From a virus (Duplodnaviria > Caudoviricetes), in the IMG/VR virus record IMGVR_UViG_3300021411_000001, positions 1 to 54,770 of that record: DNA of 54,770 nucleotides, one strand, 5' to 3'. Positions 2,411-26,469 of the stretch are shown here, one piece after another. The position numbers and the translations under genes were made by a program. The first letter of the stretch is position 1. Every line of letters starts with the position of its first letter. The notes below the pieces were generated by a model. The model had not been told where the DNA came from and did no database searches. It worked only from the letters and a program-made list of their open reading frames with translations.

Positions 2411-2685
2411 TATCCTTCCAGCCTTCCCACGTCCACTCGGACGTCTGCTATGTCCTTATTGACTCCGTCGATTTTCCTGAATGCCAGGTCGACATCCTCT
2501 TCCACGCGCTGCTTCCATGGCTTGAAGACCTCAGACTTGACATATGTCCCATTGATGGACTTGAGGAGCTCATCCTTGAACTTGTACAGCCGCAATGACA
2601 CATACAAGGCTACTGCGGCGGCGACCAGCGACGATGCAGCGGTTATCCCAGCTAATACAATCTGTGCTACAGTGTCAGGGCTCAT
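2410..2685 (-). CDS. Small membrane protein (single N-terminal TM helix; possible lysis accessory)
   Basis: Hydrophobic IVLAGITAASSLVAAAVALYV followed by a charged helix; coupled to the endolysin gene. Confidence 0.5.
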   Translation of the reverse strand: MSPDTVAQIVLAGITAASSLVAAAVALYVSLRLYKFKDELLKSINGTYVKSEVFKPWKQRVEEDVDLAFRKIDGVNKDIADVRVDVGRLEG

Positions 2686-3410
2686 GCGGTCTCTCCGGTC
2701 ATCCAGTTGAACTCTCCACCGCCCTGCATGAGATCAGGCATCACCATCGGATCCATGTGGTCGACTACATTGCCGGCCTTGATGGCTGCGTAGCTTCCAG
2801 CTGCCAGTGCAGCGACTGCAGGTTCGATCTCGGTCACTCCCATGGCCAGGAGCACTGCCAGATTCGATATAACGGCCATCCGGTAGCCCGGAGGGAGCGC
2901 CAAGGTCAATCCTATGGTTGCGAACTCGGGGACTGCCACAGGCACGTATAGAATGACCTGGTTGGCCTCACTTGGTATTGGGTAGAGCCAGACTGTGGCG
3001 AGAGGACTTGTGCCTGCATATGTCTTCTCGAAGAACAGGGATCGTGGCAGCTCAGAGGTGATAGTCTTCACGGGCACACGTGCCCATTCTTTCAGGGTGA
3101 GGATCCGCATTGGCAGCTCGACGTCGTCACCGATTATCAGGTCAATGAGCCCTGCGGCGTCGATCCACATCGGCCTTGCAGTATCCCATGCCCCACCTGT
3201 TCCTACCGTGTAGCTCTGCGTGCCAGCGACCAGGTTGAAAGGGCCGACGCGCGAGCGGACGGGAATGGCCAGGCGGTCGATGCTCCAAATGTCCAGCATC
3301 TGGTTCAGCTTGCTCAGGCCGTACTGCATTTCGGCATCGGTCAGCGTCTCGCCCAGGGCAAGACTTCCGGCCATCACCGACGCTTCAGTTATCGCTTCGC
3401 CTACAGTCAT
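2682..3410 (-). CDS. P22 gp4-like head-to-tail adaptor
   Basis: MTVGEAITEAS..GSLALGETL..GLSKLNQMLDIWS and LPPGYRMAVISNLAVLL; position downstream of the coat gene. Confidence 0.75.
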   Translation of the reverse strand: MTVGEAITEASVMAGSLALGETLTDAEMQYGLSKLNQMLDIWSIDRLAIPVRSRVGPFNLVAGTQSYTVGTGGAWDTARPMWIDAAGLIDLIIGDDVELPMRILTLKEWARVPVKTITSELPRSLFFEKTYAGTSPLATVWLYPIPSEANQVILYVPVAVPEFATIGLTLALPPGYRMAVISNLAVLLAMGVTEIEPAVAALAAGSYAAIKAGNVVDHMDPMVMPDLMQGGGEFNWMTGETA

Positions 3411-3968: not shown

Positions 3969-4949
3969 CTAGTAGAGGCAGGCGACTGGTGCAGTCGTAG
4001 CCGTGAACGTTGTCGCAGGCACAATGGTCGGCAGTGTGCCGAATGTACCCGTCTGCGACTTGGCATTAATGTCTACATAGGTCGAAGCTGCTACGAGCTT
4101 GAACGCGTCAGTCGTTCCATTGCTCTGCGCTCCGATAACGTAGAATGCCGGTCCTGTCACGAGCCTCGGCGTTGTGAATGCCAAGGTCTGGAACGTATTG
4201 GAGCCGCTGACGGTCGCACCTGCAAGTGCCGAGTTCGCCAACAGCTTGCCGTCCATATTGAACAGGGCCCCGATGATCGCATCTGTGCCGGCTACTGTTC
4301 CTTCCAGGATTCGCACACCCGTCGCCAAGAAAGTTCGTGGGACGAAGATGCTAGTCTGGTAGATCGTGCCAGCCACAGTGGCTGTGGATGTGCCAAGAGA
4401 GGCATAAGCCACACCTCCGATCGGAATGCTGCAGACCTTTGTCGGAACCGGGGGAAATGCGACCTGCTGGGAAGCCTGCTCTTCGATCCATACGCCGCCC
4501 TGGCAGTCATAGAACACGCCAGTGCGCACGTTGATGATCGGCAGGATGGCTCCAGGAGATCGGGTGCAGGAGCCTCCGAGTGTGGTAAGCGTGAAGGCCG
4601 ACTGATAGAGTGCAGCTGCACCTCCTACTGGCCCGAAGTACGCCGTTGTGCCGGCCGCATGTCCGGTGCTGAGCGAGGGCCCATAACCGGGGGAGACGGT
4701 CAGCGAAGTGGAGCTGTTCACCGCAGTGATGCGGTATGCTTCCTTGTCCAGGTAGATGACCTGGTCAAGGGTCTGTGTGCTCGCGACGATACCAGTCGTG
4801 CTGGTCACGACCAGTCGGGTCGCGCCCACGCCGACTGCATTGGTCAGTGCTGTGTTGGGAATTGCCGTCTGCGCATACCCCTGTGGGACCGCGACCACCA
4901 GGGCCACGATCAGCAGGAGTGCGACAGCCAGCTTGTTAAAGATCTTCAT
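3969..4949 (-). CDS. Signal-peptide-bearing beta-rich protein, probable capsid decoration or spike; C-terminal domain paralogous to the tail fibre
   Basis: Start MKIFNKLAVALLLIVALVVAVPQGYA|QT (alternative ATG at 4967); directly after the coat gene; Thr/Ala/Gly-rich; ends PVACLY like 14958..16268. Confidence 0.75.
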   Translation of the reverse strand: MKIFNKLAVALLLIVALVVAVPQGYAQTAIPNTALTNAVGVGATRLVVTSTTGIVASTQTLDQVIYLDKEAYRITAVNSSTSLTVSPGYGPSLSTGHAAGTTAYFGPVGGAAALYQSAFTLTTLGGSCTRSPGAILPIINVRTGVFYDCQGGVWIEEQASQQVAFPPVPTKVCSIPIGGVAYASLGTSTATVAGTIYQTSIFVPRTFLATGVRILEGTVAGTDAIIGALFNMDGKLLANSALAGATVSGSNTFQTLAFTTPRLVTGPAFYVIGAQSNGTTDAFKLVAASTYVDINAKSQTGTFGTLPTIVPATTFTATTAPVACLY

Positions 4950-4986
4950 TGGTTTGTTCTGCCTCATTGTTAACGGTTGTCGTTTA

Positions 4987-5009
4987 GGGGCGGCCGCGAA
5001 GGCCGCCCC
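4987..5009 (-). promoter_or_regulatory. GC-rich hairpin after the coat gene (no U-tract)
   Basis: GGGGCGGCC-TTCGC-GGCCGCCCC on the minus strand. Confidence 0.55.
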
Positions 5010-5023
5010 GCTTCCTGCTCGGC

Positions 5024-6296: not shown

Positions 6297-7328
6297 TTAG
6301 CGATGCCGCCTGTGCTCCGTCCGTTCCTTCTCGTAGTCACGGTCGAACTTGATGTGGTCCACGTGACTCGCCTCTTCCTGCTCTGTCTTCGACTTCACAG
6401 TTTGAGTGGAGGACTTGACCGGAGTCGTCGGCTTCGGCGCCTTGCTTGGTTTTCGTAACGCCTCATTCGGTTTCACTTCGGGCTTGGGATCTTCGCTGCC
6501 TTTCTTGGCTTCGAGTGCAGCGACGATGTCCTCGACCTTGCCCTCTATCTTGCCCATTGCCCTGATCTGCCCTGCGCGGTCCAGTGAACCGATCCGCACG
6601 GCTTCGTCCGGGTGCTTAGCCAAGTAGTAGGACATGTCGGGGCCGACCGGCGATGTCAGCATGACGTACTGCATGACTGGAGTTGCGGGCACACTGTCTG
6701 GCAGGTCGTCGAACGCCTCGTCCCAGTCTTCGTACCGCGTCTCCGCTACCGTCACGCGCTCGGTGTACTCTGCCTGGATACGTTCAGACTCCTGATTGGT
6801 GTCCCGTGCTTGTCGCTCCTGGTCCTGAGCTGCTGCCTTCTCATCAGACTTCCAGTCTGTCAGCGCCTCTACAAAGGCGCCATCCGGGTCCTCGTCATTT
6901 GCGAACTGATCCCTCGTTGGTCGCGGCCGACCAGAGAGTGGTTCCGCCTTGGCGGCCCGTGCTGGGTCCGCTTCTGGCTTCCGTTGCGCCGCCTCCAGCC
7001 TTGACAGGCGGTCGGTAAGTTCGCGCCGCTCTTCGCGGAGTTCGCGCCGATCCTGTCTCAGCTTTGTGATGGCCTTCTTCACTCCCGTAGGCAGGTCCTT
7101 CTCATCGAGGTCTTCCTCGCCCTTCGCTTTGCCTTTCTGAGTTTCGTCCTTTGTTTTGTCCGCTTCCGAAGCGGCTCCGCTTTCGGGCTTATCGTTGCCC
7201 TCGGATTGCGTTTCGACTTCCCCGATGAGGTCCTCGTCGTCATCCACTGTTACTGTCTCGGCAACTTCGCCGATAGCCTGCTTGACCTCTTCCACCGTGT
7301 CAGTCGTTGTGTCCAGTCGAATCGCCAT
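6297..7328 (-). CDS. Scaffolding protein
   Basis: Acidic/coiled-coil protein; AFVEALTDWK, GPDMSYYLAKHPDEAVRI and Pro-rich KAPKPTTPV; between portal and coat. Confidence 0.85.
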   Translation of the reverse strand: MAIRLDTTTDTVEEVKQAIGEVAETVTVDDDEDLIGEVETQSEGNDKPESGAASEADKTKDETQKGKAKGEEDLDEKDLPTGVKKAITKLRQDRRELREERRELTDRLSRLEAAQRKPEADPARAAKAEPLSGRPRPTRDQFANDEDPDGAFVEALTDWKSDEKAAAQDQERQARDTNQESERIQAEYTERVTVAETRYEDWDEAFDDLPDSVPATPVMQYVMLTSPVGPDMSYYLAKHPDEAVRIGSLDRAGQIRAMGKIEGKVEDIVAALEAKKGSEDPKPEVKPNEALRKPSKAPKPTTPVKSSTQTVKSKTEQEEASHVDHIKFDRDYEKERTEHRRHR

Positions 7329-7345: not shown

Positions 7346-9559
7346 TTAGGTTTGCGCCGGAGATTCCGTCTCCGTGGCGGTTCCAGATGTTGGTTCAGGC
7401 TGCGCGCTCTCGCCCCCGCCCTCTATAGGTCCTGGCATCTGGAAGAGATCCAGTTCCTGCTGAATCCGTGCGACTTCCGCACGGAATACTTCGATGTCGC
7501 CCTTCTGCATGAGACCAGCAAGCTTGACCTGCTCCTGCAGCGCCACTATCCGCTCCTTGCTCGCGATCTCCTGGGCCTTCGTCTTTATTGTCTCGTTCGC
7601 CTTCTCCAGGGCACCGACCAACTGCTCGTGCTGCGCACTGAGTGCCTGGAACTTCGCCTGCAGCGCTTGCTTCGCCACTTGCTCGTCGGTCTGGTCGTCC
7701 GTGCTCTCGAGCATCCCAGGCGGTAGGGACTGCCGCAGCCGCTTCACAATGACGGCAGAGTCCGGCCAGTCCATGTGCTCGACTATGATGTCGCCGATGA
7801 GTTTGAAGATGGCCGGGTCTGCCTTCACCAGGTCCATCATCGAGGACACTGCTTGCTGCCGCTTCGTTCCGTCCTTCGGGCCGACGCTCACGACGCATGC
7901 GTAGTCGCCGACGGTCATGTCGTACTTCTTCTTCTTGCCGTCCTTCTTGTCCTTGAACATCGCATTAATGAGGACTTGATCCTGCTTCTTGTCGGCTCGT
8001 GTGACCGATATGGTCCTCGCTGCATCATAGTAGTAGGGCATCATATCCAGAGCAACCTGGCCGCAGTGCTGTACTGCGCGCCTCATATTGTCCAACCAGT
8101 TGAAGTTGCCGGACTCGCTTTCCATCTTGCGGGCGTCGATCGCCTTGCCGGACTCCTGGGGTCCGCGCTGGCCGAGCGACGCGTCGAATATGTTGAAGCC
8201 GAGTTTCAGATCGTTGTCAGCCTGCCGGATGGCCATAATCATGGCCTGCACTGGCGGGTCGACGCTGTTCCGCTGTGGGGCCCCTACGAGCTGGCCCCCC
8301 TTCTCCACTGCGTCATACGGTAGATATGGCCATGCCTCTTCATTCGCACTGTCCCAGATGGCCTTATACTTTGCTACCTGTTGTGCTTCTGCCACAAACG
8401 GCGACTTGGGTGCGAGGGCGATCATTTCGGTAAATGCCGTCACCCAGTAGTTATACATGCGCTGGGCATCACGGTTGGCTCGAACCAGACCCGACAACCG
8501 CACCTGACCGCGGATGTTCTTACGCCGTCCCTGAACCATGATGAGCGGAATCCACTTGCCGCCGATCAGCCGGCCCGCAGTCTTATCATCATTGCCGTCG
8601 AGAATCTCCATGGCATTGTGCTTGCACCACATGATCTTCTTGCGGGAGCTCATGCGCGTAATCGCCTTGTCGTTCTCGTCCATCAGAAGCTGGTCGTCTG
8701 CCGTCAGTTCATCCTCGAACTTGCCGGAGCCGTCGGCCAACTGGAAGAGCTCTGCCTCTTCCTCGTCCACATAATAGTACTCGGCGACCCTGATCGTGCC
8801 GTTGGTAACCCAGTCTGGAGCATCGTCTCCGATGCTCATCATGCCGGTCAGTGACGCTGCAGCCAGCTTCGACTTGGGATACTCCGACATATACTCGCCG
8901 ACTGGCATGTCCTCGACGATGTGCCCCCACTTGATGTCCTTGCGCGTAGGTTCCACTGCAGTAGGGTCTACATAGACATTGAAGTCATTGTCGAATCCTT
9001 GAATGACCATCTTCTGGTCGAAGGATTTCTCACTCTCATACTGCGTGACGATGCGGAACCAGCTCCATCCCTTCTCGAGCATCCGGTCGTAGGCCTCGTC
9101 GTACACAGTGTCCGCGGTGCTGTCATACTCGATGTGCTTGATGAGACCCTGCTTGATTTCAGCTGTCTCCTTGTCGCTGCCATTCCCTGTTGGGTCGATC
9201 TTGATGGAGAGTTCAGCGCTCCTCTGCTCATTGGCGACATGCGCGATCATCGGAAGAAAGCGGTTGATGGTCAGGCACGGCCGCTTCTTGGCTTCACGCT
9301 TGCTTCGTACCGTCGGATCCCACTGGCCTTCACCGTCCACCATGAGGACGTCGATCATGCCCTCTTTGCGGTTATAGGCCTCTGCATCGGACGCCATTCT
9401 CTGGCGTGCCACAGATTGTGCGAGGAACTTCTCGACGGATTCGGTGACTGTATCCCTGGTCGGATCATCATCCGCGAGGTCAATACGTGCGGTTACACCT
9501 AGGCGACCGTCCCGTATCTCTACCCTCTGTCGTACTTTCCGCTGGCTCCTGCTTGCCAC
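7346..9559 (-). CDS. Portal protein, P22 gp1 family
   Basis: GEGQWDP, RPCLTINR, DAQRMYNYW, ALAPKSPF, ESGKAIDARK, C-terminal helical barrel; 737 aa; AAGGAG RBS with GTG start. Confidence 0.93.
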   Translation of the reverse strand: MASRSQRKVRQRVEIRDGRLGVTARIDLADDDPTRDTVTESVEKFLAQSVARQRMASDAEAYNRKEGMIDVLMVDGEGQWDPTVRSKREAKKRPCLTINRFLPMIAHVANEQRSAELSIKIDPTGNGSDKETAEIKQGLIKHIEYDSTADTVYDEAYDRMLEKGWSWFRIVTQYESEKSFDQKMVIQGFDNDFNVYVDPTAVEPTRKDIKWGHIVEDMPVGEYMSEYPKSKLAAASLTGMMSIGDDAPDWVTNGTIRVAEYYYVDEEEAELFQLADGSGKFEDELTADDQLLMDENDKAITRMSSRKKIMWCKHNAMEILDGNDDKTAGRLIGGKWIPLIMVQGRRKNIRGQVRLSGLVRANRDAQRMYNYWVTAFTEMIALAPKSPFVAEAQQVAKYKAIWDSANEEAWPYLPYDAVEKGGQLVGAPQRNSVDPPVQAMIMAIRQADNDLKLGFNIFDASLGQRGPQESGKAIDARKMESESGNFNWLDNMRRAVQHCGQVALDMMPYYYDAARTISVTRADKKQDQVLINAMFKDKKDGKKKKYDMTVGDYACVVSVGPKDGTKRQQAVSSMMDLVKADPAIFKLIGDIIVEHMDWPDSAVIVKRLRQSLPPGMLESTDDQTDEQVAKQALQAKFQALSAQHEQLVGALEKANETIKTKAQEIASKERIVALQEQVKLAGLMQKGDIEVFRAEVARIQQELDLFQMPGPIEGGGESAQPEPTSGTATETESPAQT

Positions 9560-10893: not shown

Positions 10894-11664
10894 TCAATTG
10901 CTCATCCAGCCCTGCGCATTGCCCCCTATGACCCATTCGCCAGAACCCGGTACGACAAGCAGTTCTGCCGGCTTCGGGGTCCACTTGCTGATTGCCATCA
11001 GACCATAGCGGAAGGCATCCATAAGGTGGTCGTTTCGCTTAACTGGCTTGCCTTTAAGGTCGCGCCGGTACATCCTGTACTCTTCCTGGAAGTACTTGCA
11101 GGTCTTGAACACCTTGAATCTGCCGCTGGAGAGGCGGAGCCAGGCCTCATAGATGCCTGCTTCAACGGAGTTGTCTGCCAACTCGAGATTAAGGCCAAGC
11201 TTCCGGTATGTGTTCGTTAGTTGCTCGCCATCCTCTGCTTTGCGCTCGCCGTTGGCACTGGGGTCGATATGGCCGAGCATCCACTCGCCCCTCGCCTTGA
11301 TTGCTCCTGCATGCTCGTAGGGCGATACGCCTCCCATGTAGTGCTCAGACCACAGATAGACTGTATCGGTCTGAATGTCCCACGCCATGAATGCCGCAGC
11401 CGTTCTGTTCCAGCCTACGTCGAAGCCGTACCCCCGCATCCAGTGCGCTGGGATCTCGAAGTCGGCGATCAGGATGTCCTCGAGCGAGGCACACTGGTAG
11501 ATCAGCCCTGATCCCAGGTTCGGTATCCCGCGCATGCGAGCATCTCTCTGGTACTCCGGGATCGTCTTCGCGAGCTCATCACGCATCCCCTTGTCGAGGT
11601 GCGGTGCGTCGTCCCATGTCGCGGTTATGACTGCTCGTGCGTTCTTCTGCTCGAGGACTTCCAT
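10894..11664 (-). CDS. terL: Terminase large subunit, C-terminal part (ATPase lid + RNase H-like nuclease)
   Basis: ATWDDAPHL, DARMRGIPNLGSG, GFDVGW, IDPS, NSVEAGI, NDHLMDAFRY (P22 gp2-like); own AAGGAG RBS. Confidence 0.9.
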   Translation of the reverse strand: MEVLEQKNARAVITATWDDAPHLDKGMRDELAKTIPEYQRDARMRGIPNLGSGLIYQCASLEDILIADFEIPAHWMRGYGFDVGWNRTAAAFMAWDIQTDTVYLWSEHYMGGVSPYEHAGAIKARGEWMLGHIDPSANGERKAEDGEQLTNTYRKLGLNLELADNSVEAGIYEAWLRLSSGRFKVFKTCKYFQEEYRMYRRDLKGKPVKRNDHLMDAFRYGLMAISKWTPKPAELLVVPGSGEWVIGGNAQGWMSN

Positions 11665-11665
11665 G

Positions 11666-12214
11666 CTACTCCTTAGACAACTGGCTTGAGATCATCTTGT
11701 TCTTCGCATCCGACCCTGCGCTGGAGCCAAAATAGTACGCCAAGACCATGATTAGGGCGGAGTCCATGGTCCCCATGACGCGCCCGACTACCACACCATC
11801 GATGTCCTTCGGCAGGCCATGCCAAAGGATGATCCCCTCGAAGAGCAGTGTGATGCCCACGACTACGAAGGCGAGGATCTTGTTAGTATGGTCCTTGACT
11901 GCGACCTCGCGAGCCCTGGCGTCCGCTCGATCGGCATTGTCCGCAGCGAGGAGGGCTTCTGCACTGTTGATGCCAATCTCCTTCATCTTAATTGTGAAGT
12001 CATTCTCGATCTGCTTCAGTTTGAGGAATGCTTCGGGATCCACTGCCTGTGCCTGGGCTATCGCGTCCGATATGCCGACGTGTGATGCTTCAACCTTGTC
12101 GAGGCCGAATGCCTTGCCGACCATCGAGGCGACAATGACTGCCGGCGGTCCGCCTATGCTCGCCGCTGCAGAAATGAATGGATAAGCTTTCCCAAGAATG
12201 TCCTTGAAACCCAT
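11666..12214 (-). CDS. Probable holin (3TM-holin-like), located between the two terL parts
   Basis: Start MGFKDILG after AAAGGAG; ADRADARAREV, two C-terminal TM helices, YYFGSSAGS. Confidence 0.75.
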   Translation of the reverse strand: MGFKDILGKAYPFISAAASIGGPPAVIVASMVGKAFGLDKVEASHVGISDAIAQAQAVDPEAFLKLKQIENDFTIKMKEIGINSAEALLAADNADRADARAREVAVKDHTNKILAFVVVGITLLFEGIILWHGLPKDIDGVVVGRVMGTMDSALIMVLAYYFGSSAGSDAKNKMISSQLSKE

Positions 12215-12447
12215 GATCCTTCTCCTTTGATTTTGTGATGGCAGCCTGGTGCGTTCAGCACATAGGCTTCCAGCTTCTCTGCGAATACCCATGCAGCGTC
12301 CACCAATTCGTCCTCGTCATTACCTGCCTGAAAGAACGAGCAGTTAGTTGCATTAGGGTGGCGCAGCGTCATGAACTGGTCCGTTAGTTCGGTCTCGAAA
12401 CCCCTCATATCGAGTTCTATCAGCTTCCACGCGCTTCGTGGCGTCAT
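12154..12447 (-). CDS. Hypothetical protein (97 aa) between the two terL parts
   Basis: MTPRSAWKL start overlaps the terL-N stop (ATGA); AAGGAAGGAG RBS. Confidence 0.6.
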   Translation of the reverse strand: MTPRSAWKLIELDMRGFETELTDQFMTLRHPNATNCSFFQAGNDEDELVDAAWVFAEKLEAYVLNAPGCHHKIKGEGSWVSRTFLGKLIHSFLQRRA

Positions 12448-13217
12448 AGCTTGTCTCCTTCCTTGTCGTACATCTCTGTGACCTCCGTCAGTCCTAGGAC
12501 CGGCGTGTAGGTCAGTATCACTATCCCGTCGACTGTCATAATGCGCATCTCGCATGCAGAATTCACATCGGCGGGCACTTCCTCGTCATTCCATATCACG
12601 TGCTTCGCATTTGACTCAAAGCTTTCTGCCCCCTGGGTGTAGGCCTTGAACTGAACCAACGAGGTCCCCCCCTTAACGTGCCTTACAGCTACGGTGTCCA
12701 TGCCGAACTTCGAAAAGCCGTGGTAGTTGTGCCGCACAATCAGTTCGCGCGGTATGAACCCGGATCCGATCTCTTCAGGTTTCTGCGGGTTGCCCAACAG
12801 TGCGGCCTGGTTGACATCGCGCACCTTCTCCCATGAGATGTTGCTGGCCCACACCTCTACTGGCTCTGTGAATACCTTGCCATCCCACCAGTCGGGATAG
12901 ATGCCTGTCAGGTGGCAGGTCACCTCGTACGCCGCAGCCTCAGTCTTGCCGATACGGTTGGCCGCGCGGAAACACCTGAAGCGGTAGATCTTCCCTGCGC
13001 TGAAGAAGATCATGTGCTTCGTGTACTTCCTGCGGGCGTGCATCAGCTTGCCGCCGACGATTGTGTCCTCGTCTGGGAAGTAGATCCTGAACTTGTGCGC
13101 TGCCTTCGAGGCCAACTCGAGCACCTCGCGGTTCGCAGCATCGCCTGCAGCCCTTGCTGTGAGCGTCTCGAATGCTTTAACTGCCTTCTTACCGCTAAGC
13201 AGGTCTCCGAGTCTCAC
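12444..13217 (-). CDS. terL: Terminase large subunit, N-terminal ATPase part
   Basis: Walker A RAANRIGKT, HLTGIYPDWWDGK, Walker B VIWNDEE, coupling motif LTYTP; GTG start overlapping the upstream TGA. Confidence 0.9.
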   Translation of the reverse strand: MRLGDLLSGKKAVKAFETLTARAAGDAANREVLELASKAAHKFRIYFPDEDTIVGGKLMHARRKYTKHMIFFSAGKIYRFRCFRAANRIGKTEAAAYEVTCHLTGIYPDWWDGKVFTEPVEVWASNISWEKVRDVNQAALLGNPQKPEEIGSGFIPRELIVRHNYHGFSKFGMDTVAVRHVKGGTSLVQFKAYTQGAESFESNAKHVIWNDEEVPADVNSACEMRIMTVDGIVILTYTPVLGLTEVTEMYDKEGDKL

Positions 13218-13927
13218 AGCAGTCCCCCATCGTAATTCGCCATTGTGCATGACACGCCAGCATCATTGCCGAAGAAGTAGATGCCCGGCATGCCGTACGA
13301 TATCGGGCCGACCGCGTCCACGAATGTCCCTTGGAGGGTCCCGTTAAGGTACGCTCGGATGGTCGTGAAGCCGACTGACAGGGCAGCTTCGATCCTCAAC
13401 GTGTCGCCGGCGACGACCGAGGGAATGGTCCCCAATGACGCTAGACTGACACTACCGGATTTGAAAACATCCACTGCTAGGCCGACCTTCCTGATGCAGA
13501 GCCAATATGCGTTGCCCCTGTTCGGGTCTATGCACACGCCGGGGCCTATCGCATTCCCGGCTCCGGGTGTACCTGACGGAGCATTGGATACGACCGTTAT
13601 CTGCGAGTACTGGTTCGCGCCAGACAGCAAGTCCTGCGAGAGTTTGGTCGGTAGGAAAGCGCACTTCGCCGTGCCACCCCCCGTCGTCGTAAGGCCAGTG
13701 ACCCCCAGATTCAGAAGTCCGTCGAGCGTGGAGCCAGCAGTGCCTGAGTCGGGCCCGAAGCAGACCTGCCATTCCGAAGTTATAAAAGAAGTTAATTCGT
13801 CGGGCGGCGTAGTGAGCGGGTCTGTGAACCTCGTGCGCCCGCCGTTGATGTTGCTGTCCTCCGGCCAGATGCGGAACTCCTTGCGCCTGTAAAGTGGCCC
13901 TGAAGCGGGGGTTACTCGTAGTGGCAT
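13214..13927 (-). CDS. Beta-sandwich (lectin-like) putative tail/virion protein
   Basis: Start MPLRVTP coupled by TGATG; Gly/Ser/Thr-rich; GDTLRIEA..TIRAYLNGTLQGT..G.PGIY. Confidence 0.55.
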   Translation of the reverse strand: MPLRVTPASGPLYRRKEFRIWPEDSNINGGRTRFTDPLTTPPDELTSFITSEWQVCFGPDSGTAGSTLDGLLNLGVTGLTTTGGGTAKCAFLPTKLSQDLLSGANQYSQITVVSNAPSGTPGAGNAIGPGVCIDPNRGNAYWLCIRKVGLAVDVFKSGSVSLASLGTIPSVVAGDTLRIEAALSVGFTTIRAYLNGTLQGTFVDAVGPISYGMPGIYFFGNDAGVSCTMANYDGGLL

Positions 13928-14259
13928 CAGCTTGGTACCGCCGCCATGGTAAGGAAGTAATCGATATCCGCCCCCGCAGTCTGCCATGCCTGGATCGTAT
14001 CGCCAGGCAGGATCTGCAGGCGGAGGTCGATCTCAAGCGTCTGACCTGGCTTCAACACGCTGTTGGTCGAGTCGCCTGCGAAGACATATACCCCTGCGAT
14101 GAGCAGGTTGATAATCCTGCTCGATGCCCCGCGATTGCACATGGTGCCGAACAGTCTGACTGACTGCTTGCTTGCTGGGGCATCCATAAGGACTGAGGGC
14201 GTAATGCTGAGTGTGCCGATCGCCCTCGTTAGTGTCGACACTCCTATCGGTGCTGCCAT
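13927..14259 (-). CDS. Small beta-rich putative virion protein
   Basis: GGAG RBS; ends ILPGDTIQAW...; in the tail cluster. Confidence 0.55.
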   Translation of the reverse strand: MAAPIGVSTLTRAIGTLSITPSVLMDAPASKQSVRLFGTMCNRGASSRIINLLIAGVYVFAGDSTNSVLKPGQTLEIDLRLQILPGDTIQAWQTAGADIDYFLTMAAVPS

Positions 14260-14261
14260 TG

Positions 14262-14651
14262 TTAGTCTCCGAAGAAGAGCGCTTCTGCGCTCAATGGGTA
14301 GTTGTATCCTATCGTGACGACCGCCGCCTGGTTCACCGGGTCGTCCTCTATGTCGATGAGTATTGCATCACTTGGTATCAAGTCCATTGTCGACCTGGTG
14401 GAGACCTCCACGCCGTTCAGCTCGAAGATCGTTCCGCGACCAGTAATGAAGTTGAGCAGGTCATTGAACCACTTCAGCCAGGGGTACGACACGAGTGTCC
14501 CGCCAGTCCCCTTCTTGCCGCCGCCCTCCACTCCTTGCTGCTTGCCGGTCTTGTAGAATGACTGCCTGGCGTCCAGGGCTGCAAGCGCAGCGTCATCCCA
14601 GTCAAGGAACGGAGTCCTATACGGTGGAGGCGGAGCTGTCCTGTTCGGCAT
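14262..14651 (-). CDS. Putative tail-needle/adaptor-like protein
   Basis: N-terminal PPPPYRTPFLD...VSYPWLKWFNDL resembles proteins I recall being encoded after gp10 in P22-like podoviruses; AAGGAGG RBS. Confidence 0.45.
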   Translation of the reverse strand: MPNRTAPPPPYRTPFLDWDDAALAALDARQSFYKTGKQQGVEGGGKKGTGGTLVSYPWLKWFNDLLNFITGRGTIFELNGVEVSTRSTMDLIPSDAILIDIEDDPVNQAAVVTIGYNYPLSAEALFFGD

Positions 14652-14823
14652 CGCACACCTCCTTGAAGTGATCGAGCATCTTGCCGCTCACGATCAGCCT
14701 CCAGTCTCCACTGGGCAGCTTCGACAGTTCGAGCGTCTCCCTGTCGACGTACAGCACTACGAGTTTCGCCTGGTCGATCTCGAGCACCTGGTCGGTGCCG
14801 TTAACCTTCAGCTGGATCTTCAT
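14617..14823 (-). CDS. Hypothetical protein
   Basis: 68-aa ORF in operon orientation. Confidence 0.5.
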   Translation of the reverse strand: MKIQLKVNGTDQVLEIDQAKLVVLYVDRETLELSKLPSGDWRLIVSGKMLDHFKEVCDAEQDSSASTV

Positions 14824-14956
14824 GCTTCACCCTGTCCTTCATCACCTTGCAATAGACTTGACTGTCCTCGTACCTCTTATAGGCCATGTAGCAACACCAC
14901 GCGAGACCTTGCTCGTCCCAGTATATGGGCTCATTGCAGATGTAACACCTGTCCAT
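14801..14956 (-). CDS. Cys-rich micro-protein (51 aa), absent from the ORF track
   Basis: Hand-translated MDRCYICNEPIYWDEQGLAWCCYMAYKRYEDSQVYCKVMKDRVKHEDPAEG; starts 1 nt after the fibre stop. Confidence 0.5.
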   Translation of the reverse strand: MDRCYICNEPIYWDEQGLAWCCYMAYKRYEDSQVYCKVMKDRVKHEDPAEG

Positions 14957-14957
14957 G

Positions 14958-16268
14958 TTAGTAGAGGCACGCAACTGGCCCGACTCCCGCAGTGAACGTC
15001 GTCGGAACAGTCAATGCAGGGAAGGTCCCAAACGTCCCTGTTGCCGATGTGGTTAACACATCCACGAAAGTCAGGGTTGCGATTGTCCTGAATCGGGCAG
15101 ATGTTCCATTATATTGGATCCCTATGTAGTAACGAGCAGGCCCGACCGCTGCGTATGTGCCGGTGAATGCCACGTCCTGAAAGACGTTGGTACCTGCCTC
15201 CGCGGTACCCGCCAGCGCACTGTTGGCGAGGGCCGACCCGTTCGCGCCGGCGTAGATCGCAACGTTGACGCTGTTCGCTGCCGCCGATCCGTTAAGCGTA
15301 CTCACACCTGTGACCGTCATGTTGACGGGCAACCATACTTCAGACCAGTACGTAGTTCCGCTGACTGGCGTAGTGTCCGTGCCGACCGACCCGTACGCCA
15401 CCGATCCGACTGGTACAGAGCAGACCCTTGAGCGGCCATTGCTTAGCGAAGTGATCTTGGGCGTAGTGAGCGTCTTGTTCGTAAGAGTCTGGGTCGCAGT
15501 GTCGAGGACTACCGTTCCGCTCTCGTTAGGCCCTGTGTATGTCCTGGTCGTCGCTGTGGTGATCCCCGACGCCTCAAAGGCGATCTTCTTGGTGTTGTCG
15601 CCGTTATCCGCTACGGTGAACGTGGAGTCCAGGGCGGTGATGCTATTGGTTGTGCCGATGACCTTGTTTGTGATGGTCTGAACCAAAGTATCGAGCACGA
15701 TGACACCGTTCGCATCGGGCAAGGTGTAGGTGCGGGTCGTCGCAGTCGTGATGGACGTCGCGCTGAACTGCGCCTGCTTCGTAGTGTCCGTATTGGCTTG
15801 GAGCGTAAAAAGGTTGTCCTTGACCGTGATGGTGTTGGTGTTGTTTAGCACCTTGTTGGACAAAGTCTGTACGCTTGTCGTGTCGACGATCGCACCTGAG
15901 ATGTTGCTGGCAAGTGGAGCGCACACATTGTCCTGGGTCCACTGCGTCACGCTCAGGCTGTTCTGTAGCACGAGCTTGTAGCATGCAGCGGTCGAGAGGT
16001 AGATCGTCGCCCTGCCTGCGGAGTCAAGCACTACTGGGTTGGCGTTGGGTGTACCGATTGAATCAGCATACGACGCAAGTGGGGTGCCTGGGCAGGTCGC
16101 CCCTGCAGTGCATGTGTACAGCTTGCCTCCGCTCAGTGGGTTGCCGTTGGCATCGAACAGCTGCAGCTTGGCATACGGCATGATGGTATAACTCTGGCCG
16201 TACGTGTGGTCGATGCTAACACAGAACAGGATGGCTACAAGCGCAGCCAGGAAAAGTATTCGCTTCAC
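14958..16268 (-). CDS. Tail fibre/spike with P22-type head-binding domain and N-terminal signal peptide (436 aa)
   Basis: GTG start with GAGGAGGG RBS, overlapping the upstream TGA; MKRILFLAALVAILFCVSIDHTYG|QS; FDANGNPLSGGKLYT...NANPVVLDSAGRATIYL; about 60-aa TRTYTLPD...QTLTNK repeats; C-terminal domain ending PVACLY. Confidence 0.85.
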   Translation of the reverse strand: MKRILFLAALVAILFCVSIDHTYGQSYTIMPYAKLQLFDANGNPLSGGKLYTCTAGATCPGTPLASYADSIGTPNANPVVLDSAGRATIYLSTAACYKLVLQNSLSVTQWTQDNVCAPLASNISGAIVDTTSVQTLSNKVLNNTNTITVKDNLFTLQANTDTTKQAQFSATSITTATTRTYTLPDANGVIVLDTLVQTITNKVIGTTNSITALDSTFTVADNGDNTKKIAFEASGITTATTRTYTGPNESGTVVLDTATQTLTNKTLTTPKITSLSNGRSRVCSVPVGSVAYGSVGTDTTPVSGTTYWSEVWLPVNMTVTGVSTLNGSAAANSVNVAIYAGANGSALANSALAGTAEAGTNVFQDVAFTGTYAAVGPARYYIGIQYNGTSARFRTIATLTFVDVLTTSATGTFGTFPALTVPTTFTAGVGPVACLY

Positions 16269-16369
16269 GGTCCCTCCTCGAAGTCCTCGTCGTTTAATAT
16301 GGTCCCGCATGCGCAGCACACGGGGCAGCAGCAAAGGCAGTGCGTGCCGTCAATGCTTTGGCAGCACAT
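16265..16369 (-). CDS. Cys-rich micro-protein (34 aa, 9 Cys)
   Basis: Hand-translated MCCQSIDGTHCLCCCPVCCACGTILNDEDFEEGP; TGATG and GTGA coupling on either side. Confidence 0.55.
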   Translation of the reverse strand: MCCQSIDGTHCLCCCPVCCACGTILNDEDFEEGP

Positions 16370-16503
16370 CAGACCTCGTCTTCACACTGGTCGCCGCATG
16401 CACACTCATGGAAGCCATCGCAGGTCTCCTGCAATATGCACTCGTGCTGACCACCGCATTGGTCGTCGTCATACGGCGACTCCCATTGGTAGCCACACCT
16501 CAT
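16369..16503 (-). CDS. Cys-rich acidic micro-protein (44 aa, 7 Cys)
   Basis: Hand-translated MRCGYQWESPYDDDQCGGQHECILQETCDGFHECACGDQCEDEV; TAATG and TGATG coupling. Confidence 0.55.
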   Translation of the reverse strand: MRCGYQWESPYDDDQCGGQHECILQETCDGFHECACGDQCEDEV

Positions 16504-16712
16504 TAAAGCACGCTGCGGTACGATCCGCTATGGTGTCCGCCGCGACTTCCGATAATGCGGAAGAGCACAAGAGGTCGTGGTTGCCACCCAGCTCTGCGCA
16601 TTATTACTATTGAGCGCCGCGTTGGCCTGCAGTTGCACTCGTCTTTTGGTTCATGACAGCCCTGGCACTCAGTGACGAGCCGCTTGACCTCTTCGTCCAG
16701 TGCCTTAAACAT
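16503..16712 (-). CDS. Small Zn-finger-like protein
   Basis: CQGC...CNC; coupled to its neighbours. Confidence 0.5.
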   Translation of the reverse strand: MFKALDEEVKRLVTECQGCHEPKDECNCRPTRRSIVIMRRAGWQPRPLVLFRIIGSRGGHHSGSYRSVL

Positions 16713-22092: not shown

Positions 22093-22185
22093 CCGAACCA
22101 GCGGAAGCTGGCCACGGCGCGGTGGGGTAGCCGGCAGCGTTGGGCCGTCGGCGCCCCGTCAACAACTCTAACAATGGAGGATACG

Positions 22186-23163
22186 ATGATGAGACTACTC
22201 ATAAGGCTCGAGCGGCGCGATGGCGCATGCGTCGAGACACGACACGAGATTGCAGACCATGCGATATTTGGCTGGCCTGCGTTTGTTTCCCAGGTCCTGC
22301 GGCCGGCATTCGAAGGCCTGAAGAACCTGGGAACCGGAAGAGTTATGGGCTTCCTCGGCTTCGAGGATGGCACAGTCGCTTACAGTGACTACAGCCGAGA
22401 GACGCGGCAGAAGAGCCAATATGCAGCGGAAATCGACAGCCTGCGCCAGCAGCTCAAGCTGTCCAGGGAAGAGACTGCCGCGATTCAGAAGATCGCGGAC
22501 GGCCGGCAGTACGAGATCAGCCAGCTGAAAAAGGAAACGACGGAACTGAAAGCCAAGCTCAAGAAAGCCTTTTTCTTCCCCGACTTCCCATTTGCTCCAT
22601 TTCCGCCGCCCCCATTCCCGTTATCCGGTGCTGCACTGCGGTTCAGCACGGTCAATGACCCATTCAGCTTCGGTCCAGACGTCTCTGGGGTCCAGCCAGG
22701 GCCGACATGTGAATGCGGATCGTGCAAAGAACAATTCAAAGTCGAACGGGCAGAGATCGCAATGAAGAAAGCACAGGATAATCGCGAAGAGAAGCGACTC
22801 CGGTACATCGCTGCGGACCAAGCATTGGCCGACGCGCGTACCAAGGTTAACAAGGCATTCAAGGCTCGCGACGAGAAGCAAAAGGACTTCCAGCAAGCGA
22901 GCGACGAAGCGGACAAGGCAACCAGTTTGTACAAAAGCCTCCAATTCGAGCGCATAAACTGGCGCCGCGGTGATGTCATCGAAGTGCGCAAGCCAACGCC
23001 TTACACGCGATTTGCCAATGTGCCCAAGCACATTGTCAACAACCGGACTGCAGCGAACGTGGAGTACAGGAAAGCCCTGCTCAACCAGGGCGTCAACCCT
23101 GACCAGCCGACAGTGCAGGAATTCGAGTTCTTCACAGACACGTACAAAATCTGGAACACCTAG
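22186..23163 (+). CDS. Coiled-coil hypothetical protein with a Pro/Phe-rich insert and CxCxxC
   Basis: GGAGG RBS; long ORF with phage-like codon usage. Confidence 0.7.
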   Translation: MMRLLIRLERRDGACVETRHEIADHAIFGWPAFVSQVLRPAFEGLKNLGTGRVMGFLGFEDGTVAYSDYSRETRQKSQYAAEIDSLRQQLKLSREETAAIQKIADGRQYEISQLKKETTELKAKLKKAFFFPDFPFAPFPPPPFPLSGAALRFSTVNDPFSFGPDVSGVQPGPTCECGSCKEQFKVERAEIAMKKAQDNREEKRLRYIAADQALADARTKVNKAFKARDEKQKDFQQASDEADKATSLYKSLQFERINWRRGDVIEVRKPTPYTRFANVPKHIVNNRTAANVEYRKALLNQGVNPDQPTVQEFEFFTDTYKIWNT

Positions 23164-23228: not shown

Positions 23229-23756
23229 ATGAAGAGAATCACTTTGGCCATTCTGATCCTGCTGATGGTAGTCGTCAGCGTCTACGCCTACGGGGTCCAT
23301 GACTGGAACGGCCAGTATGCGACTATGGATTACGCGGACTTCGTCATCGGCGGTTGGCCGGCAACGGGCGGAGGTGCGATGACCGTCACCGCACCATATG
23401 CGGCCGGGGTATCCCCATCGAATGTGCTCACCAACAGGTACTCCATTGACACATACAGAAAGACAATCCACTGGGTGCTCGACCTGACGGACCTGAACAT
23501 CGGCGGGACCAGGACAAACCAGTTCATCGCTCTGAAGATCCCTGAAGGTAAGTACGCCAATGCGACGGTGCAGAAGAGCTGCCTCGCGTCGGACAACAAC
23601 GGGACGGCCAGCTGGTATCCGTGCTACTTCATACAGTCGGAGTGGCTGCAATACCTTTATGTTCGCAGGATCGACCAACAGAACTGGCCGGCGACGACAA
23701 CCTTGAGGCTGGACATCGACACCATCATCGAGTATGTCGACCAGCCACCCCAATGA
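23229..23756 (+). CDS. Secreted beta-rich protein (signal peptide, one Cys pair)
   Basis: MKRITLAILILLMVVVSVYA|YG; mature part resembles fibre-tip beta domains. Confidence 0.7.
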   Translation: MKRITLAILILLMVVVSVYAYGVHDWNGQYATMDYADFVIGGWPATGGGAMTVTAPYAAGVSPSNVLTNRYSIDTYRKTIHWVLDLTDLNIGGTRTNQFIALKIPEGKYANATVQKSCLASDNNGTASWYPCYFIQSEWLQYLYVRRIDQQNWPATTTLRLDIDTIIEYVDQPPQ

Positions 23757-26050: not shown

Positions 26051-26469
26051 TTCCAATAGGGACGACTTTTACTTTCAACCAGGACAACAAGATCTACTTG
26101 TGTGGCAGGTTCTCCAAGCGCTTCGAGTTCCGCTTAGTTCGCGAGGTGCTGAAGGAGCGTGGGTACGAGGTCACCTCGTCCTGGATCGACCAGCCGGACT
26201 CCACGGATCCAGGGAGCTTTGCCACCTTTCAGGCTGTAGCTCGGCGCGACCTGGACGACTTGGATAAATGCGACATCGTGCTGGTGGATCCGGAGCCCTC
26301 GACAAAGGGGTCCATGTTCTTCGAGATGGGGTACGGCTTCGCCAACAAGAAGCGGATCGTCATTGTGGGGGAAAGCCCAATGCTCTTCTCATCGCTCGCG
26401 CACAAGCACTACCCACTTGGATGGACTTACCTCCTCTTCGCTCACCTCAAGAACGGTGGGAGGATCTGA
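26047..26469 (+). CDS. Nucleoside 2-deoxyribosyltransferase / nucleotide N-hydrolase-fold protein
   Basis: KIYLCG, VTSSWI, RDLDDLDKCD, GSMFFEMGYG. Confidence 0.7.
   Translation: MIPIGTTFTFNQDNKIYLCGRFSKRFEFRLVREVLKERGYEVTSSWIDQPDSTDPGSFATFQAVARRDLDDLDKCDIVLVDPEPSTKGSMFFEMGYGFANKKRIVIVGESPMLFSSLAHKHYPLGWTYLLFAHLKNGGRI

What the first reader, a model, noticed from the sequence alone, without database searches (positions are those of the whole stretch)
14958..16268. Tail fibre with a P22-type head-binding domain carries a Sec signal peptide: candidate extracytoplasmic virion-maturation system
Seen: the best-supported start is GTG 16268 (GAGGAGGG RBS; overlaps the TGA of the upstream micro-ORF), whereas the internal ATG at MPYAK has no RBS. 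This gives MKRILFLAALVAILFCVSIDHTYG|QS, a basic-hydrophobic-cleavage signal peptide directly ahead of the head-binding domain. The mature protein has six Cys that fall into three plausible pairs (YTCTAGATCP; AACYK..NVCAP; RVCS..ACLY), while coat, scaffold and gp4-like proteins have none. Known: tailed-phage virions assemble in the cytoplasm, Dsb disulfide formation is periplasmic, and P22 tailspike attaches to finished particles as the last step, even in vitro. Inference: the fibre is exported, oxidatively folded in the periplasm and joins particles only once the inner membrane is breached. Alternatively, the exported receptor-binding protein masks receptors (superinfection exclusion). I know of no described pathway of this kind.
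Basis: partly seen in the sequence, partly recalled or inferred. Interest (0 to 1): 0.92.

Follow-up and report, generated by a model that had tools for sequence, protein, structure and literature searches.

The report
Phage tail fibre with export signal
A complete P22-like phage genome encodes its only tail fibre with a secretion signal in front of the part that docks onto the virus particle, which suggests that the particle is finished outside the cytoplasm.

Summary
GTG 16268 (GAGGAGGG upstream, GTGA overlap with a 34-aa upstream ORF) opens a 436-aa protein. Its first 24 residues have the layout of a Sec signal peptide, with predicted cleavage TYG|QS.

Homologues show the signal is real. 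Among 161 proteins carrying the same N-terminal domain, 80 have a signal-like extension of 15-72 residues and 77 start directly at the domain. None is intermediate. 74 of the 80 show small-x-small|Q at the boundary, and Met30 is not conserved.

The domain after the signal matches the particle-docking N-domains of podophage fibres by fold (Pan3, Pam1, Sf6, P22 tailspike head-binding domain). It has no Pfam hit. All three Cys pairs are gained and lost as pairs. With one exception they occur only in signal-bearing proteins.

This complete genome and five related virus records (two at least 96% complete) each hold exactly one such gene, the signal-bearing one. In relatives it occupies the canonical tailspike slot. 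A second signal-bearing fibre-like paralog follows the coat gene.

Best reading (about 0.5): a true virion fibre that is exported, disulfide-bonded and attached to particles only after the inner membrane is breached. Export, cleavage and attachment are untested, and the host is unknown. My seven literature searches found no description of this.

The parts
16272..16279 (-). Shine-Dalgarno-like GAGGAGGG, ending 3 nt before the GTG start
16265..16369 (-). Upstream 34-aa ORF with 10 Cys. Its TGA overlaps the fibre's GTG (GTGA), which suggests translational coupling.
16197..16268 (-). Residues 1-24: Sec/SPI-type signal peptide (n-region K2 R3, h-region 4-17, c-region ending TYG). Predicted cleavage is before Q25.
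   Evidence: modelled as a helix over residues 2-21
15894..16196 (-). Residues 25-125: N-terminal particle (tail-hub) docking domain with Cys pairs C53/C59 and C96/C116
15432..15893 (-). Residues 126-279: shaft built of about two and a half roughly 50-aa repeats of the phage fibre type
   Evidence: (phrog_38058 tail fiber, phrog_692 virion structural protein)
14958..15431 (-). Residues 280-436 plus stop: C-terminal beta-sandwich knob, clamped by Cys pair C283/C434. It is shared with the paralog and with other fibres and spikes.
3969..4949 (-). Paralog (326 aa from ATG 4949) directly after the coat gene. It has its own signal peptide with predicted cleavage GYA|QT and the same C-terminal knob (46% identity to residues 280-436).
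   Evidence: signal-bearing orthologues in the same position in L029, L038, L070
244..1791 (-). gp10-like tail hub protein (phrog_578, head closure Hc3), the presumed docking partner. It has no signal peptide.
2682..3410 (-). gp4-like adaptor, without signal peptide

Best explanation
The gene encodes the phage's genuine tail fibre, its receptor-binding protein, made as a secretory precursor. Steps shown or strongly supported by sequence: translation starts at GTG 16268; the first 24 residues are a Sec-type signal peptide with a signal-peptidase-I site before Gln25; the mature N-terminal domain is the domain by which podophage fibres and spikes dock on the gp4/gp10 tail hub; three Cys pairs behave as structural pairs. 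Steps inferred: the precursor crosses the inner membrane through Sec. It is cleaved, and Gln25 probably cyclises to pyroglutamate as in 'Q-rule' bacteria. It trimerises and gains disulfides in the periplasm. DNA-filled, fibre-less particles accumulate in the cytoplasm. The fibre meets and binds the hub only when the inner membrane is breached at lysis, or just after release. The coat-adjacent paralog, with the same knob and its own signal, would follow the same route. The likely benefits are disulfide-stabilised adhesins and no premature receptor binding.
For: (1) The signal is real. Among 161 N-domain proteins, 80 have a hydrophobic extension of 15-72 aa and 77 have none; 4 were dropped; none falls at 6-15 residues. 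74 of the 80 show small-x-small|Q at the boundary. Gln25 is invariant in 28 of 28 signal-type proteins aligned. Q at +1 is the published hallmark of signal peptidase I substrates in Bacteroidetes (PMC5837995, abstract and section 16 read). (2) The docking domain is real. Residues 28-120 align to the very N-terminus of annotated tailspikes of Xanthomonas phage PBR31 and Rhodoferax phage P26218. Foldseek matches tail-complex chains of cyanopodophages Pan3 (E 2.2e-5, 30% id) and Pam1, Sf6 gp14N and the P22 head-binding domain. (3) It is the only such gene. This complete genome (127-bp terminal repeat) has one N-domain gene. So does each of 5 of 5 related records with a signal-type gene, two of them at least 96% complete. 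(4) Position. In 6 of the 8 signal-type IMG/VR loci (L039, L060, L070, L072, L081, L107) the gene directly follows the ejection/internal proteins, where present after the gp4-like and gp10-like genes, as the signal-less spikes do in the cultured phages; in L036 it follows the gp10-like gene and precedes the ejection-like genes, and in L038 it follows a gp4-like gene. (5) Cysteines. C53/C59 are both present in 51 of 80 signal proteins against 1 of 77 without a signal, and never singly (0 of 157). C96/C116 are both present in 11 of 80 against 0 of 77; in 2 of the 80 only one of these two columns holds a Cys. C283/C434 are both present in 13 of 37 knob proteins, all 13 signal-bearing, and never singly. 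(6) The gene is in the operon. It is translationally coupled to the upstream ORF and has no promoter-like or terminator-like site on its strand. (7) Predicted complex of 3 N-domains with gp10-like: weak support. Score 0.41, best of 3 controls 0.02. The mark was reached by 58 of 80 solved complexes and 2 of 110 mismatched pairs, but at 0.60 or under by only 7 of those 80 and by both mismatches that passed. Runs agree in at least 77% of contacts and partner pLDDT is at least 83. P22 gp10:gp9N complexes are solved, so the pass may reflect likeness to them. P22 tailspike joining finished heads last, also in vitro, is recalled textbook knowledge.
Against: Nothing here shows export, cleavage, disulfides or attachment. 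With phylogeny controlled, the link between signal and Cys pair is not significant: 6 independent contrasts on supported branches, the pair going the same way in about 1.3, the other way in 0 and unchanged in about 4.7. The raw 51/80 against 1/77 may therefore reflect few lineages. The 161 proteins are those most similar to a signal-type query, so 'half' is not the family-wide share; only 8 of 81 IMG/VR matches were signal-type. Pantoea WceF shows that an exported tailspike-like trimer can keep a P22-like N-terminal head domain without being a virion part (PMC7949094, passages read). No holin or spanin was recognised, so the membrane-breach step has no identified machinery. The host is unknown, and even whether it has two membranes. 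Joining fibres to particles at lysis faces dilution. Signal-less orthologues work in related phages, so export is not required by the domain itself. In this phage the gene lies upstream of the terminase, not in the usual tailspike slot.
Confidence: 0.5

Rival explanations
1. The protein is exported but is not a virion part. It would be a phage-encoded periplasmic or secreted glycan-binding protein (a depolymerase in relatives), comparable to Pantoea WceF. It could act on nascent capsule, EPS or LPS to ease release, keep progeny from sticking to debris, or exclude other phages. The N-domain would be kept only for trimer stability. The real receptor-binding protein would be an unrecognised ORF.
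For: WceF is Tat-exported, trimeric, tailspike-like, retains a P22-TSP-like N-terminal head domain, and needs it for solubility (PMC7949094, passages read). Many signal-type homologues are 600-870 aa; I did not test them for enzymatic domains. Several ORFs here have no assigned function: 13214-13987, 13927-14259, 14262-14651 and 51680-53575. The gene lies outside the tail module in this genome. The Porphyromonas phage paper reports phage genes of unknown function with Q-rule signals, read there as modifying the host envelope (PMC10367356, passages read).
Against: It is the only gene with a hub-docking domain in this complete genome and in 5 of 5 related records. In six of the eight signal-type relatives it sits right after the ejection/internal proteins, where signal-less phages place their tailspike. 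The N-domain is conserved while C-terminal modules are swapped, which is the pattern of virion-anchored receptor-binding proteins. No independent promoter or terminator was found. The genome looks virulent.
Confidence: 0.25
2. The hydrophobic N-terminus does not lead to full export. It might act as an uncleaved membrane anchor holding the fibre at the inner membrane until lysis. Alternatively, export is inefficient late in infection and the cytoplasmic fraction is what assembles.
For: No experimental data on targeting exist. Some homologue signals carry a lipobox-like Cys (P0002, P0010, P0015, P0123), which hints at membrane tethering in part of the family. SAR endolysins (recalled) show that phages use N-terminal signal-anchors as timing devices.
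Against: 74 of 80 have a canonical small-x-small|Q cleavage motif. With a basic n-region, the positive-inside rule places the C-terminal body outside. The Cys pairs are confined to signal-bearing forms, which argues for an oxidising compartment. The target itself has F at -1 of C16, so it has no lipobox.
Confidence: 0.1
3. The true start is Met30 (ATG 16181), and the upstream in-frame hydrophobic stretch is untranslated or an annotation artefact.
For: Signal-less homologues start 1-5 residues before the equivalent of Pro31, so a product starting at Met30 would look like them.
Against: There is no ribosome-binding motif before ATG 16181, but a strong one before GTG 16268 together with the GTGA overlap. 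The position of Met30 is L, F or I in the closest homologues, which still carry the extension. Homologue P0003 opens with the same seven residues as the GTG product. An untranslated region would not keep n/h/c architecture and Gln at +1 across 80 divergent sequences.
Confidence: 0.03

Closest known systems
N-terminal hub-docking domain of podophage tail fibres and tailspikes (cyanophage Pam1 7EEQ, Pan3 9VYG, Sf6 gp14, P22 gp9 head-binding domain 1LKT)
   Same: Same fold (Foldseek prob 1.00; 29-31% identity to Pam1/Pan3; TM on target 0.43-0.71). Same position at the start of the mature protein. Same genomic partners: P22-type portal and coat, gp4-like and gp10-like proteins.
   Different: All solved and cultured examples begin directly with the domain. 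10 of 25 GenBank phage hits were checked and none has room for a signal. This one has a 24-residue signal peptide and two Cys pairs inside the domain. There is no Pfam PF09008 match.
Pantoea stewartii WceF (PMC7949094)
   Same: An exported, tailspike-like protein that keeps a P22-TSP-like N-terminal head domain behind a cleavable signal.
   Different: WceF uses a Tat signal, is chromosomal within an EPS biosynthesis cluster, and is an enzyme with a beta-helix. The present gene has a Sec-type signal (K-R, no twin-arginine motif), lies in a complete phage genome as its only docking-domain protein, and has a repeat shaft and knob instead of a beta-helix.
Filamentous phage pIII/pVIII (recalled)
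   Same: Virion proteins, including the receptor-binding protein, are made with Sec signal peptides and join the particle outside the cytoplasm.
   Different: Inoviruses assemble by extrusion through the envelope and have no cytoplasmic capsid. Here the capsid is a P22-like icosahedral head assembled and packaged in the cytoplasm.
Secreted or SAR endolysins; Acidianus two-tailed virus extracellular tail growth (recalled)
   Same: Phage proteins pre-positioned outside the cytoplasm before lysis; a virion that matures after leaving the cell.
   Different: Endolysins are not virion parts. ATV is an archaeal virus whose tails grow without Sec export of a separate fibre.
Bdellovibrio chimeric fibre (MAT) proteins (PMC10769870; search listing and abstract only)
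   Same: Trimeric phage-fibre-like adhesins used outside the cytoplasm by a bacterium.
   Different: They are bacterial surface proteins, not encoded in a phage or attached to a capsid. I did not compare sequences.

Membership tests
Sec / signal peptidase I signal peptide | Basic n-region, hydrophobic h-region of about 10-15 residues, and a c-region with small residues at -3 and -1 | tested here: met
   K2 R3; residues 4-17 hydrophobic (Kyte-Doolittle 9-residue mean 3.27); T at -3 and G at -1 before Q25. This is my own heuristic; SignalP was not available.
Sec / signal peptidase I signal peptide | The architecture is conserved in homologues while the sequence diverges | tested here: met
   80 of 157 classified N-domain proteins have such an extension. 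74 of the 80 have small-x-small|Q. No extension of 6-15 residues occurs.
Sec / signal peptidase I signal peptide | Actual translocation and cleavage | not testable with these tools
   Needs fusion, fractionation or N-terminal proteomics experiments.
P22 tailspike head-binding domain (Pfam PF09008) | Match to the Pfam model | tested here: not met
   0 Pfam families at E<=1.
P22 tailspike head-binding domain (Pfam PF09008) | Same fold as 1LKT/2VKY | tested here: met
   Foldseek prob 1.00, TM on target 0.43-0.61, 91-92 columns, 12-13% identity. Model pLDDT is about 82-92 over residues 41-110.
Podophage fibre/spike N-terminal hub-docking domain (Pam1/Pan3 type) | Sequence and fold similarity to chains resolved in tail complexes; domain at the start of the mature protein | tested here: met
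   9vyg_m E 2.2e-5 at 30% identity; 7eeq_A at 29% identity, TMt 0.71. tblastn hits the N-termini of annotated tailspikes.
Podophage fibre/spike N-terminal hub-docking domain (Pam1/Pan3 type) | Binds the gp10/gp4 hub of its own phage | tested here: inconclusive
   Predicted complex gives weak support: 0.41 against best control 0.02. The pass may come from likeness to solved P22 complexes.
Bacterial lipoprotein (SPII) signal | Lipobox with A, G or S at -1 of the Cys | tested here: not met
   C16 is preceded by I-L-F. Some homologues do have lipobox-like motifs.
Type IX secretion cargo | C-terminal sorting domain (NCBIfam/TIGRFAM CTD models) | tested here: not met
   No CTD model among NCBIfam hits at E<=1 for the fibre or the paralog. 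The C-terminal Cys pairs with C283, so the domain looks retained.
Moron / lysogenic-conversion gene | Own promoter and terminator, in a temperate phage | tested here: not met
   No sigma-70-like promoter or intrinsic terminator on the minus strand around the gene (non-sigma-70 promoters are not covered). GTGA coupling to the upstream ORF. No integrase or repressor hit in 57 of 77 ORFs scanned.
WceF-like exported bacterial tailspike homologue | Tat signal; chromosomal polysaccharide gene cluster | tested here: not met
   No twin-arginine motif in the n-region. The gene lies in a complete virus record with terminal repeats.

The most novel reading that the evidence does not exclude
A large, uncultivated group of P22-like and related podophages finishes its virions outside the cytoplasm. 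Their tailspikes or fibres, and in some a coat-adjacent fibre, are Sec-exported, cut by signal peptidase I to a Gln (pyroglutamate) N-terminus and disulfide-bonded in the periplasm. They dock on fibre-less, DNA-filled particles only once the inner membrane is breached. This would be an obligatory extracytoplasmic last assembly step in tailed phages, apparently tied to hosts that follow the Q-rule.
Probability: 0.45. Interest if true: 0.92.

Novelty: new variant of a known kind. Interest (0 to 1): 0.8.

Why it matters
Tailed-phage virions are taken to assemble entirely in the cytoplasm. If the only receptor-binding protein of a phage is routed through Sec, the last assembly step must happen in the periplasm, at lysis or after release. 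That would be a new morphogenetic route for the most abundant viruses.

It would also explain how such fibres can carry disulfides. It would link phage adhesin biogenesis to host envelope machinery (Sec, signal peptidase I, thiol oxidases, glutaminyl cyclase). It offers a simple sequence marker, signal plus Q at +1, that may help assign hosts to uncultivated phages.

There is a practical point too. Receptor-binding proteins of this class would need periplasmic or oxidising expression to fold when produced recombinantly. Even under the rival reading (exported but not in the virion), a lytic phage exporting a tailspike homologue would be an undescribed infection strategy.

Tried and rejected
- Pfam on the fibre gave nothing. 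NCBIfam gave only sub-threshold noise and no type IX sorting domain.
- The genome-contig scan with the fibre returned only repeat-region matches in two Saccharibacteria MAGs and was no help for the host.
- The first viral-contig scan with the single protein also hit only the repeat shaft. An alignment-based scan was needed.
- Cluster look-up of 10 homologues gave no organism names.
- The protein atlas gave only sub-0.9 leads to viral clusters.
- No tRNA genes were found.
- Host assignment failed. The only named relative of the portal is a Bryobacteraceae MAG protein at 40% identity, which is too distant to count.
- 'Relatives' cannot be drawn for a virus record.
- Model coordinates are not exposed, so Cys-Cys distances could not be measured.
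- The independent-contrast test of signal against Cys pair lacked power.
- Lysis genes were not identified. There is a weak Rz-like hit for 22174-23163 at E 3.4e-4 and a cell-wall hydrolase at 1967-2410 inside the structural module.
- Seven literature searches and passages of PMC5723332 and PMC8143477 found no report of a signal peptide on a tailed-phage fibre or spike.
- I considered and rejected a lipoprotein, a type IX secretion cargo, a moron, and a start at Met30.
Full report
**What the window is.** The window is a whole IMG/VR virus record of 54,770 bp. It is classed as having direct terminal repeats and 100% complete, and I found a 127-bp exact terminal repeat. It is a P22-like podovirus:
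- P22-type portal at 7346-9559 (PF16510, E 8e-142) and P22 coat at 5024-6247 (PF11651)
- scaffold at 6297-7328
- gp4-like adaptor at 2682-3410 and gp10-like hub at 244-1791 (phrog_578, E 1e-108)
- ejection proteins that wrap round the record end: 54405-54758, 53590-54414, 51680-53575, 46336-51678 and 44713-46302.

The plus-strand block carries a family A DNA polymerase, an SNF2 helicase, exonucleases, a thymidylate-synthase-like gene, a 5-hmdU DNA kinase domain and a nucleoside deoxyribosyltransferase. No integrase or repressor was hit in the 57 of 77 heuristic ORFs that I scanned in at least one library. The phage therefore looks virulent.

**The observation.**
- GTG 16268 is preceded by GAGGAGGG and overlaps the TGA of a 34-aa, 10-Cys ORF as GTGA.
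- ATG 16181 (Met30), ATG 16310 and TTG 16334 have no comparable ribosome-binding motif.
- The 436-aa product starts with K-R, a 14-residue hydrophobic core and a c-region ending T-Y-G before Gln25.
- The mature part has six Cys (53, 59, 96, 116, 283, 434).
- Coat, scaffold and gp4-like proteins have none, but gp10-like has 6 and the portal 4. The Cys contrast is therefore only partial.

**Is the signal peptide real?** SignalP was not available, so I relied on comparison.
- The four full-length homologues (55-77% identity) and further partial ones all carry an N-terminal extension with different residues but the same architecture. It ends A-x-A or x-x-G directly before Q-[TS]-Y. Their residue at the Met30 position is L, F or I.
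- A full HMMER scan with the mature N-domain (residues 25-125) found 15,689 representatives at E<=1e-3.
- I pooled the best 150 with earlier hits, which gave 161 proteins carrying the domain. Four were dropped: two with internal domains and two with weakly hydrophobic extensions.
- The projected domain start is bimodal. 77 proteins start at -4 to +5 and 80 carry an extension of 15-72 residues with a hydrophobic core. None falls at 6-15.
- 74 of the 80 have small-x-small|Q at the junction. Gln25 is invariant in 28 of 28 signal-type proteins aligned.
- Gln at +1 is the published 'Q-rule' of signal peptidase I substrates in Bacteroidetes. The mean is 71% of substrates, and the rule also appears in scattered other lineages such as Ignavibacterium (PMC5837995, abstract and section 16 read).

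One caveat applies. These 161 are the sequences nearest a signal-type query, so the share of signal-type members in the whole family is unknown. Among 81 N-domain matches in 80 IMG/VR loci, 8 were signal-type, 67 were not and 6 were unresolved.

**What follows the signal.**
- Pfam finds nothing. PHROGs gives tail fibre and virion structural families for the repeat shaft.
- tblastn against GenBank phages matched 25 records, all over residues 28-137 only.
- In Xanthomonas phage PBR31 (annotated tail spike) and Rhodoferax phage P26218, the match begins at residue 3-5 of the protein.
- Eight further records leave no room for a signal. In all, 10 of the 25 records were checked and none is signal-type.
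- An AlphaFold model (mean pLDDT 74; N-domain about 82-92 over residues 41-110; knob mostly 86-92 over residues 301-390 and more uneven, 71-92, to the end) puts a helix at residues 2-21 and a disordered linker at 20-32.
- Foldseek matches the N-domain to tail-complex chains of cyanopodophages Pan3 and Pam1 (29-31% identity, E down to 2.2e-5), Sf6 gp14N, and the P22 tailspike head-binding domain (1LKT, 2VKY; prob 1.00, 12-13% identity).
- The knob matches a cyanophage A4 capsid-unit chain and mycobacteriophage central fibres.

**Cysteines.** Each of the three pairs behaves as a unit.
- C53/C59: both present in 51 of 80 signal-type proteins against 1 of 77 signal-less (Fisher p = 3e-19), and never singly in 157.
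- C96/C116: both present in 11 of 80 against 0 of 77; 2 of the 80 carry a Cys at only one of these two columns.
- C283/C434: both present in 13 of 37 knob-domain proteins, all 13 signal-bearing, and never singly.

The cultured, signal-less spikes have Tyr and a gap at the first pair's columns and Ala/Thr at the second pair's. This is what disulfides restricted to an oxidising compartment would look like.

A FastTree-based independent-contrast test had little power. It gave 6 contrasts on supported branches, with the pair changing the same way in about 1.3, the opposite way in 0 and not changing in about 4.7. The association may therefore rest on few lineages.

**Is it the virion's fibre?** Several results say yes.
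- The complete genome has one N-domain gene.
- Five of five related virus records with a signal-type gene also have exactly one. These include G005 (terminal repeats, 100% complete) and G006 (96%).
- In six of the eight signal-type IMG/VR loci (L039, L060, L070, L072, L081, L107) the gene comes right after the ejection/internal proteins, and gp4-like and gp10-like genes lie upstream where the locus reaches them. This is the order seen in the cultured phages PBR31 and P26218. In L036 the gene follows the gp10-like gene and precedes the ejection-like genes, and L038 shows a gp4-like gene, a 171-aa ORF and then the gene.
- The N-domain stays conserved while C-terminal modules differ, as expected for a virion anchor.
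- The gene has no promoter-like or terminator-like site of its own and is coupled to the upstream ORF.
- A predicted complex of three N-domains with the gp10-like hub gave weak support. The score was 0.41 against a best control of 0.02. The mark was reached by 58 of 80 solved complexes and 2 of 110 mismatched pairs, but at 0.60 or under by only 7 of those 80 and by both mismatches that passed. Runs agree in at least 77% of contacts and partner pLDDT is at least 83. Because P22 gp10:gp9N is solved, the pass may be memory of a like complex.

**A second case in the same genome.** Directly after the coat gene lies a 326-aa protein (3969-4949).
- It has its own signal, with predicted cleavage G-Y-A|Q-T.
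- It shares the same knob (46% identity to residues 280-436) and includes the equivalent Cys pair.
- Signal-bearing orthologues sit in the same place in L029, L038 and L070. In L039 the coat-adjacent ORF starts without a signal.
- L039 has three more large ORFs with signal-like N-termini after its spike, and L029 has a Gly-rich one.

Export of appendage proteins thus seems to be a habit of this phage group, not an oddity of one gene.

**Mechanism.** The best-supported reading is that the fibre is made as a Sec precursor and cleaved before Gln25, which is probably then cyclised. It is oxidised and trimerised in the periplasm. It is added to fibre-less particles when the inner membrane is breached or just after release. 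P22 tailspike binding to finished heads as the last step, also in vitro, is textbook knowledge that I recall and did not check here.

Shown: the start codon context, signal architecture and its conservation, docking-domain homology, paired Cys behaviour, single copy and synteny. Inferred: translocation, cleavage, disulfides, and the time and place of attachment.

I put this reading at about 0.5. The main rival (about 0.25) is an exported non-virion protein of the WceF kind. Pantoea WceF is Tat-exported and tailspike-like, and it keeps a P22-like N-terminal head domain that it needs for solubility (PMC7949094, passages read). Retention of the domain therefore does not by itself prove virion attachment. 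A membrane-anchor or leaky-export variant gets about 0.1, and a Met30 start about 0.03.

**Weak points.**
- The host is unknown. The only named portal relative is a Bryobacteraceae MAG protein at 40% identity.
- No holin or spanin was recognised.
- In this phage the fibre gene lies upstream of the terminase rather than in the tail module.
- Signal-less orthologues evidently work in related phages.

**Novelty.** Seven full-text searches and passages of two Bacteroides phage papers found no report of a signal peptide on a tailed-phage fibre or spike.

The nearest statements in print are two. The other is WceF.

The protein is a new variant of a known kind of protein. The assembly route it implies would be new for tailed phages.

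Noticed in passing
window 10894-13250 (-): The large terminase appears split. The N-terminal ATPase part is at 12444-13250 (PF03237) and the nuclease part at 10894-11664 (PF17289). They are separated by a 208-aa ORF (11666-12292, phrog_1544, unknown function). This could be an inserted mobile element or a genuinely two-gene terminase.
   Followed up: no
window 26047-26469, 33426-34379, 34931-35605, 35602-36459 (+): A gene set suggests thymidine hypermodification of the phage DNA: a 5-hmdU DNA kinase domain (PF18723, E 1e-37), a thymidylate-synthase-like gene, a nucleotide pyrophosphohydrolase and a nucleoside 2-deoxyribosyltransferase.
   Followed up: no
window 16265-16712 and 14801-14974 (-): A run of small Cys-rich ORFs flanks the fibre gene: 34 aa with 10 Cys, then 44 aa and 69 aa upstream, and a 57-aa CxxC-containing ORF downstream. 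None has a family hit. They could be zinc-binding proteins, or they may not be genes at all.
   Followed up: partly
window 23229-23756 (+) and 36474-36908 (+): Two more small proteins have signal-like N-termini. The 144-aa one has a predicted cleavage T-G|Q-T, again with Gln at +1. Neither has a family hit.
   Followed up: partly
window 4985-5020 (-), between coat and paralog: A GC-rich inverted repeat follows the coat stop codon directly and has no T-run. It may be an attenuator that sets the coat-to-paralog expression ratio.
   Followed up: no
L039 11095-17981; L029 16162-17475; L070 11326-12234: Related phages carry further large ORFs with signal-like N-termini next to the signal-bearing spike or coat-adjacent gene. 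One of them is a Gly-rich 437-aa protein.
   Followed up: partly
homologues P0002, P0010, P0015, P0123: In some close homologues the signal contains a lipobox-like motif 7-8 residues before the A-x-A|Q site. Part of the family might therefore be lipid-anchored rather than soluble.
   Followed up: no
window 46336-51678 (-): A 1780-aa protein among the ejection genes has no Cys at all and only a weak lysin-like stretch (phrog_7348, E 2e-5).
   Followed up: no
window 13214-14651 (-): Three ORFs (257, 110 and 129 aa) between the fibre and the terminase have no family hit. A small terminase subunit was not identified and may be among them.
   Followed up: no
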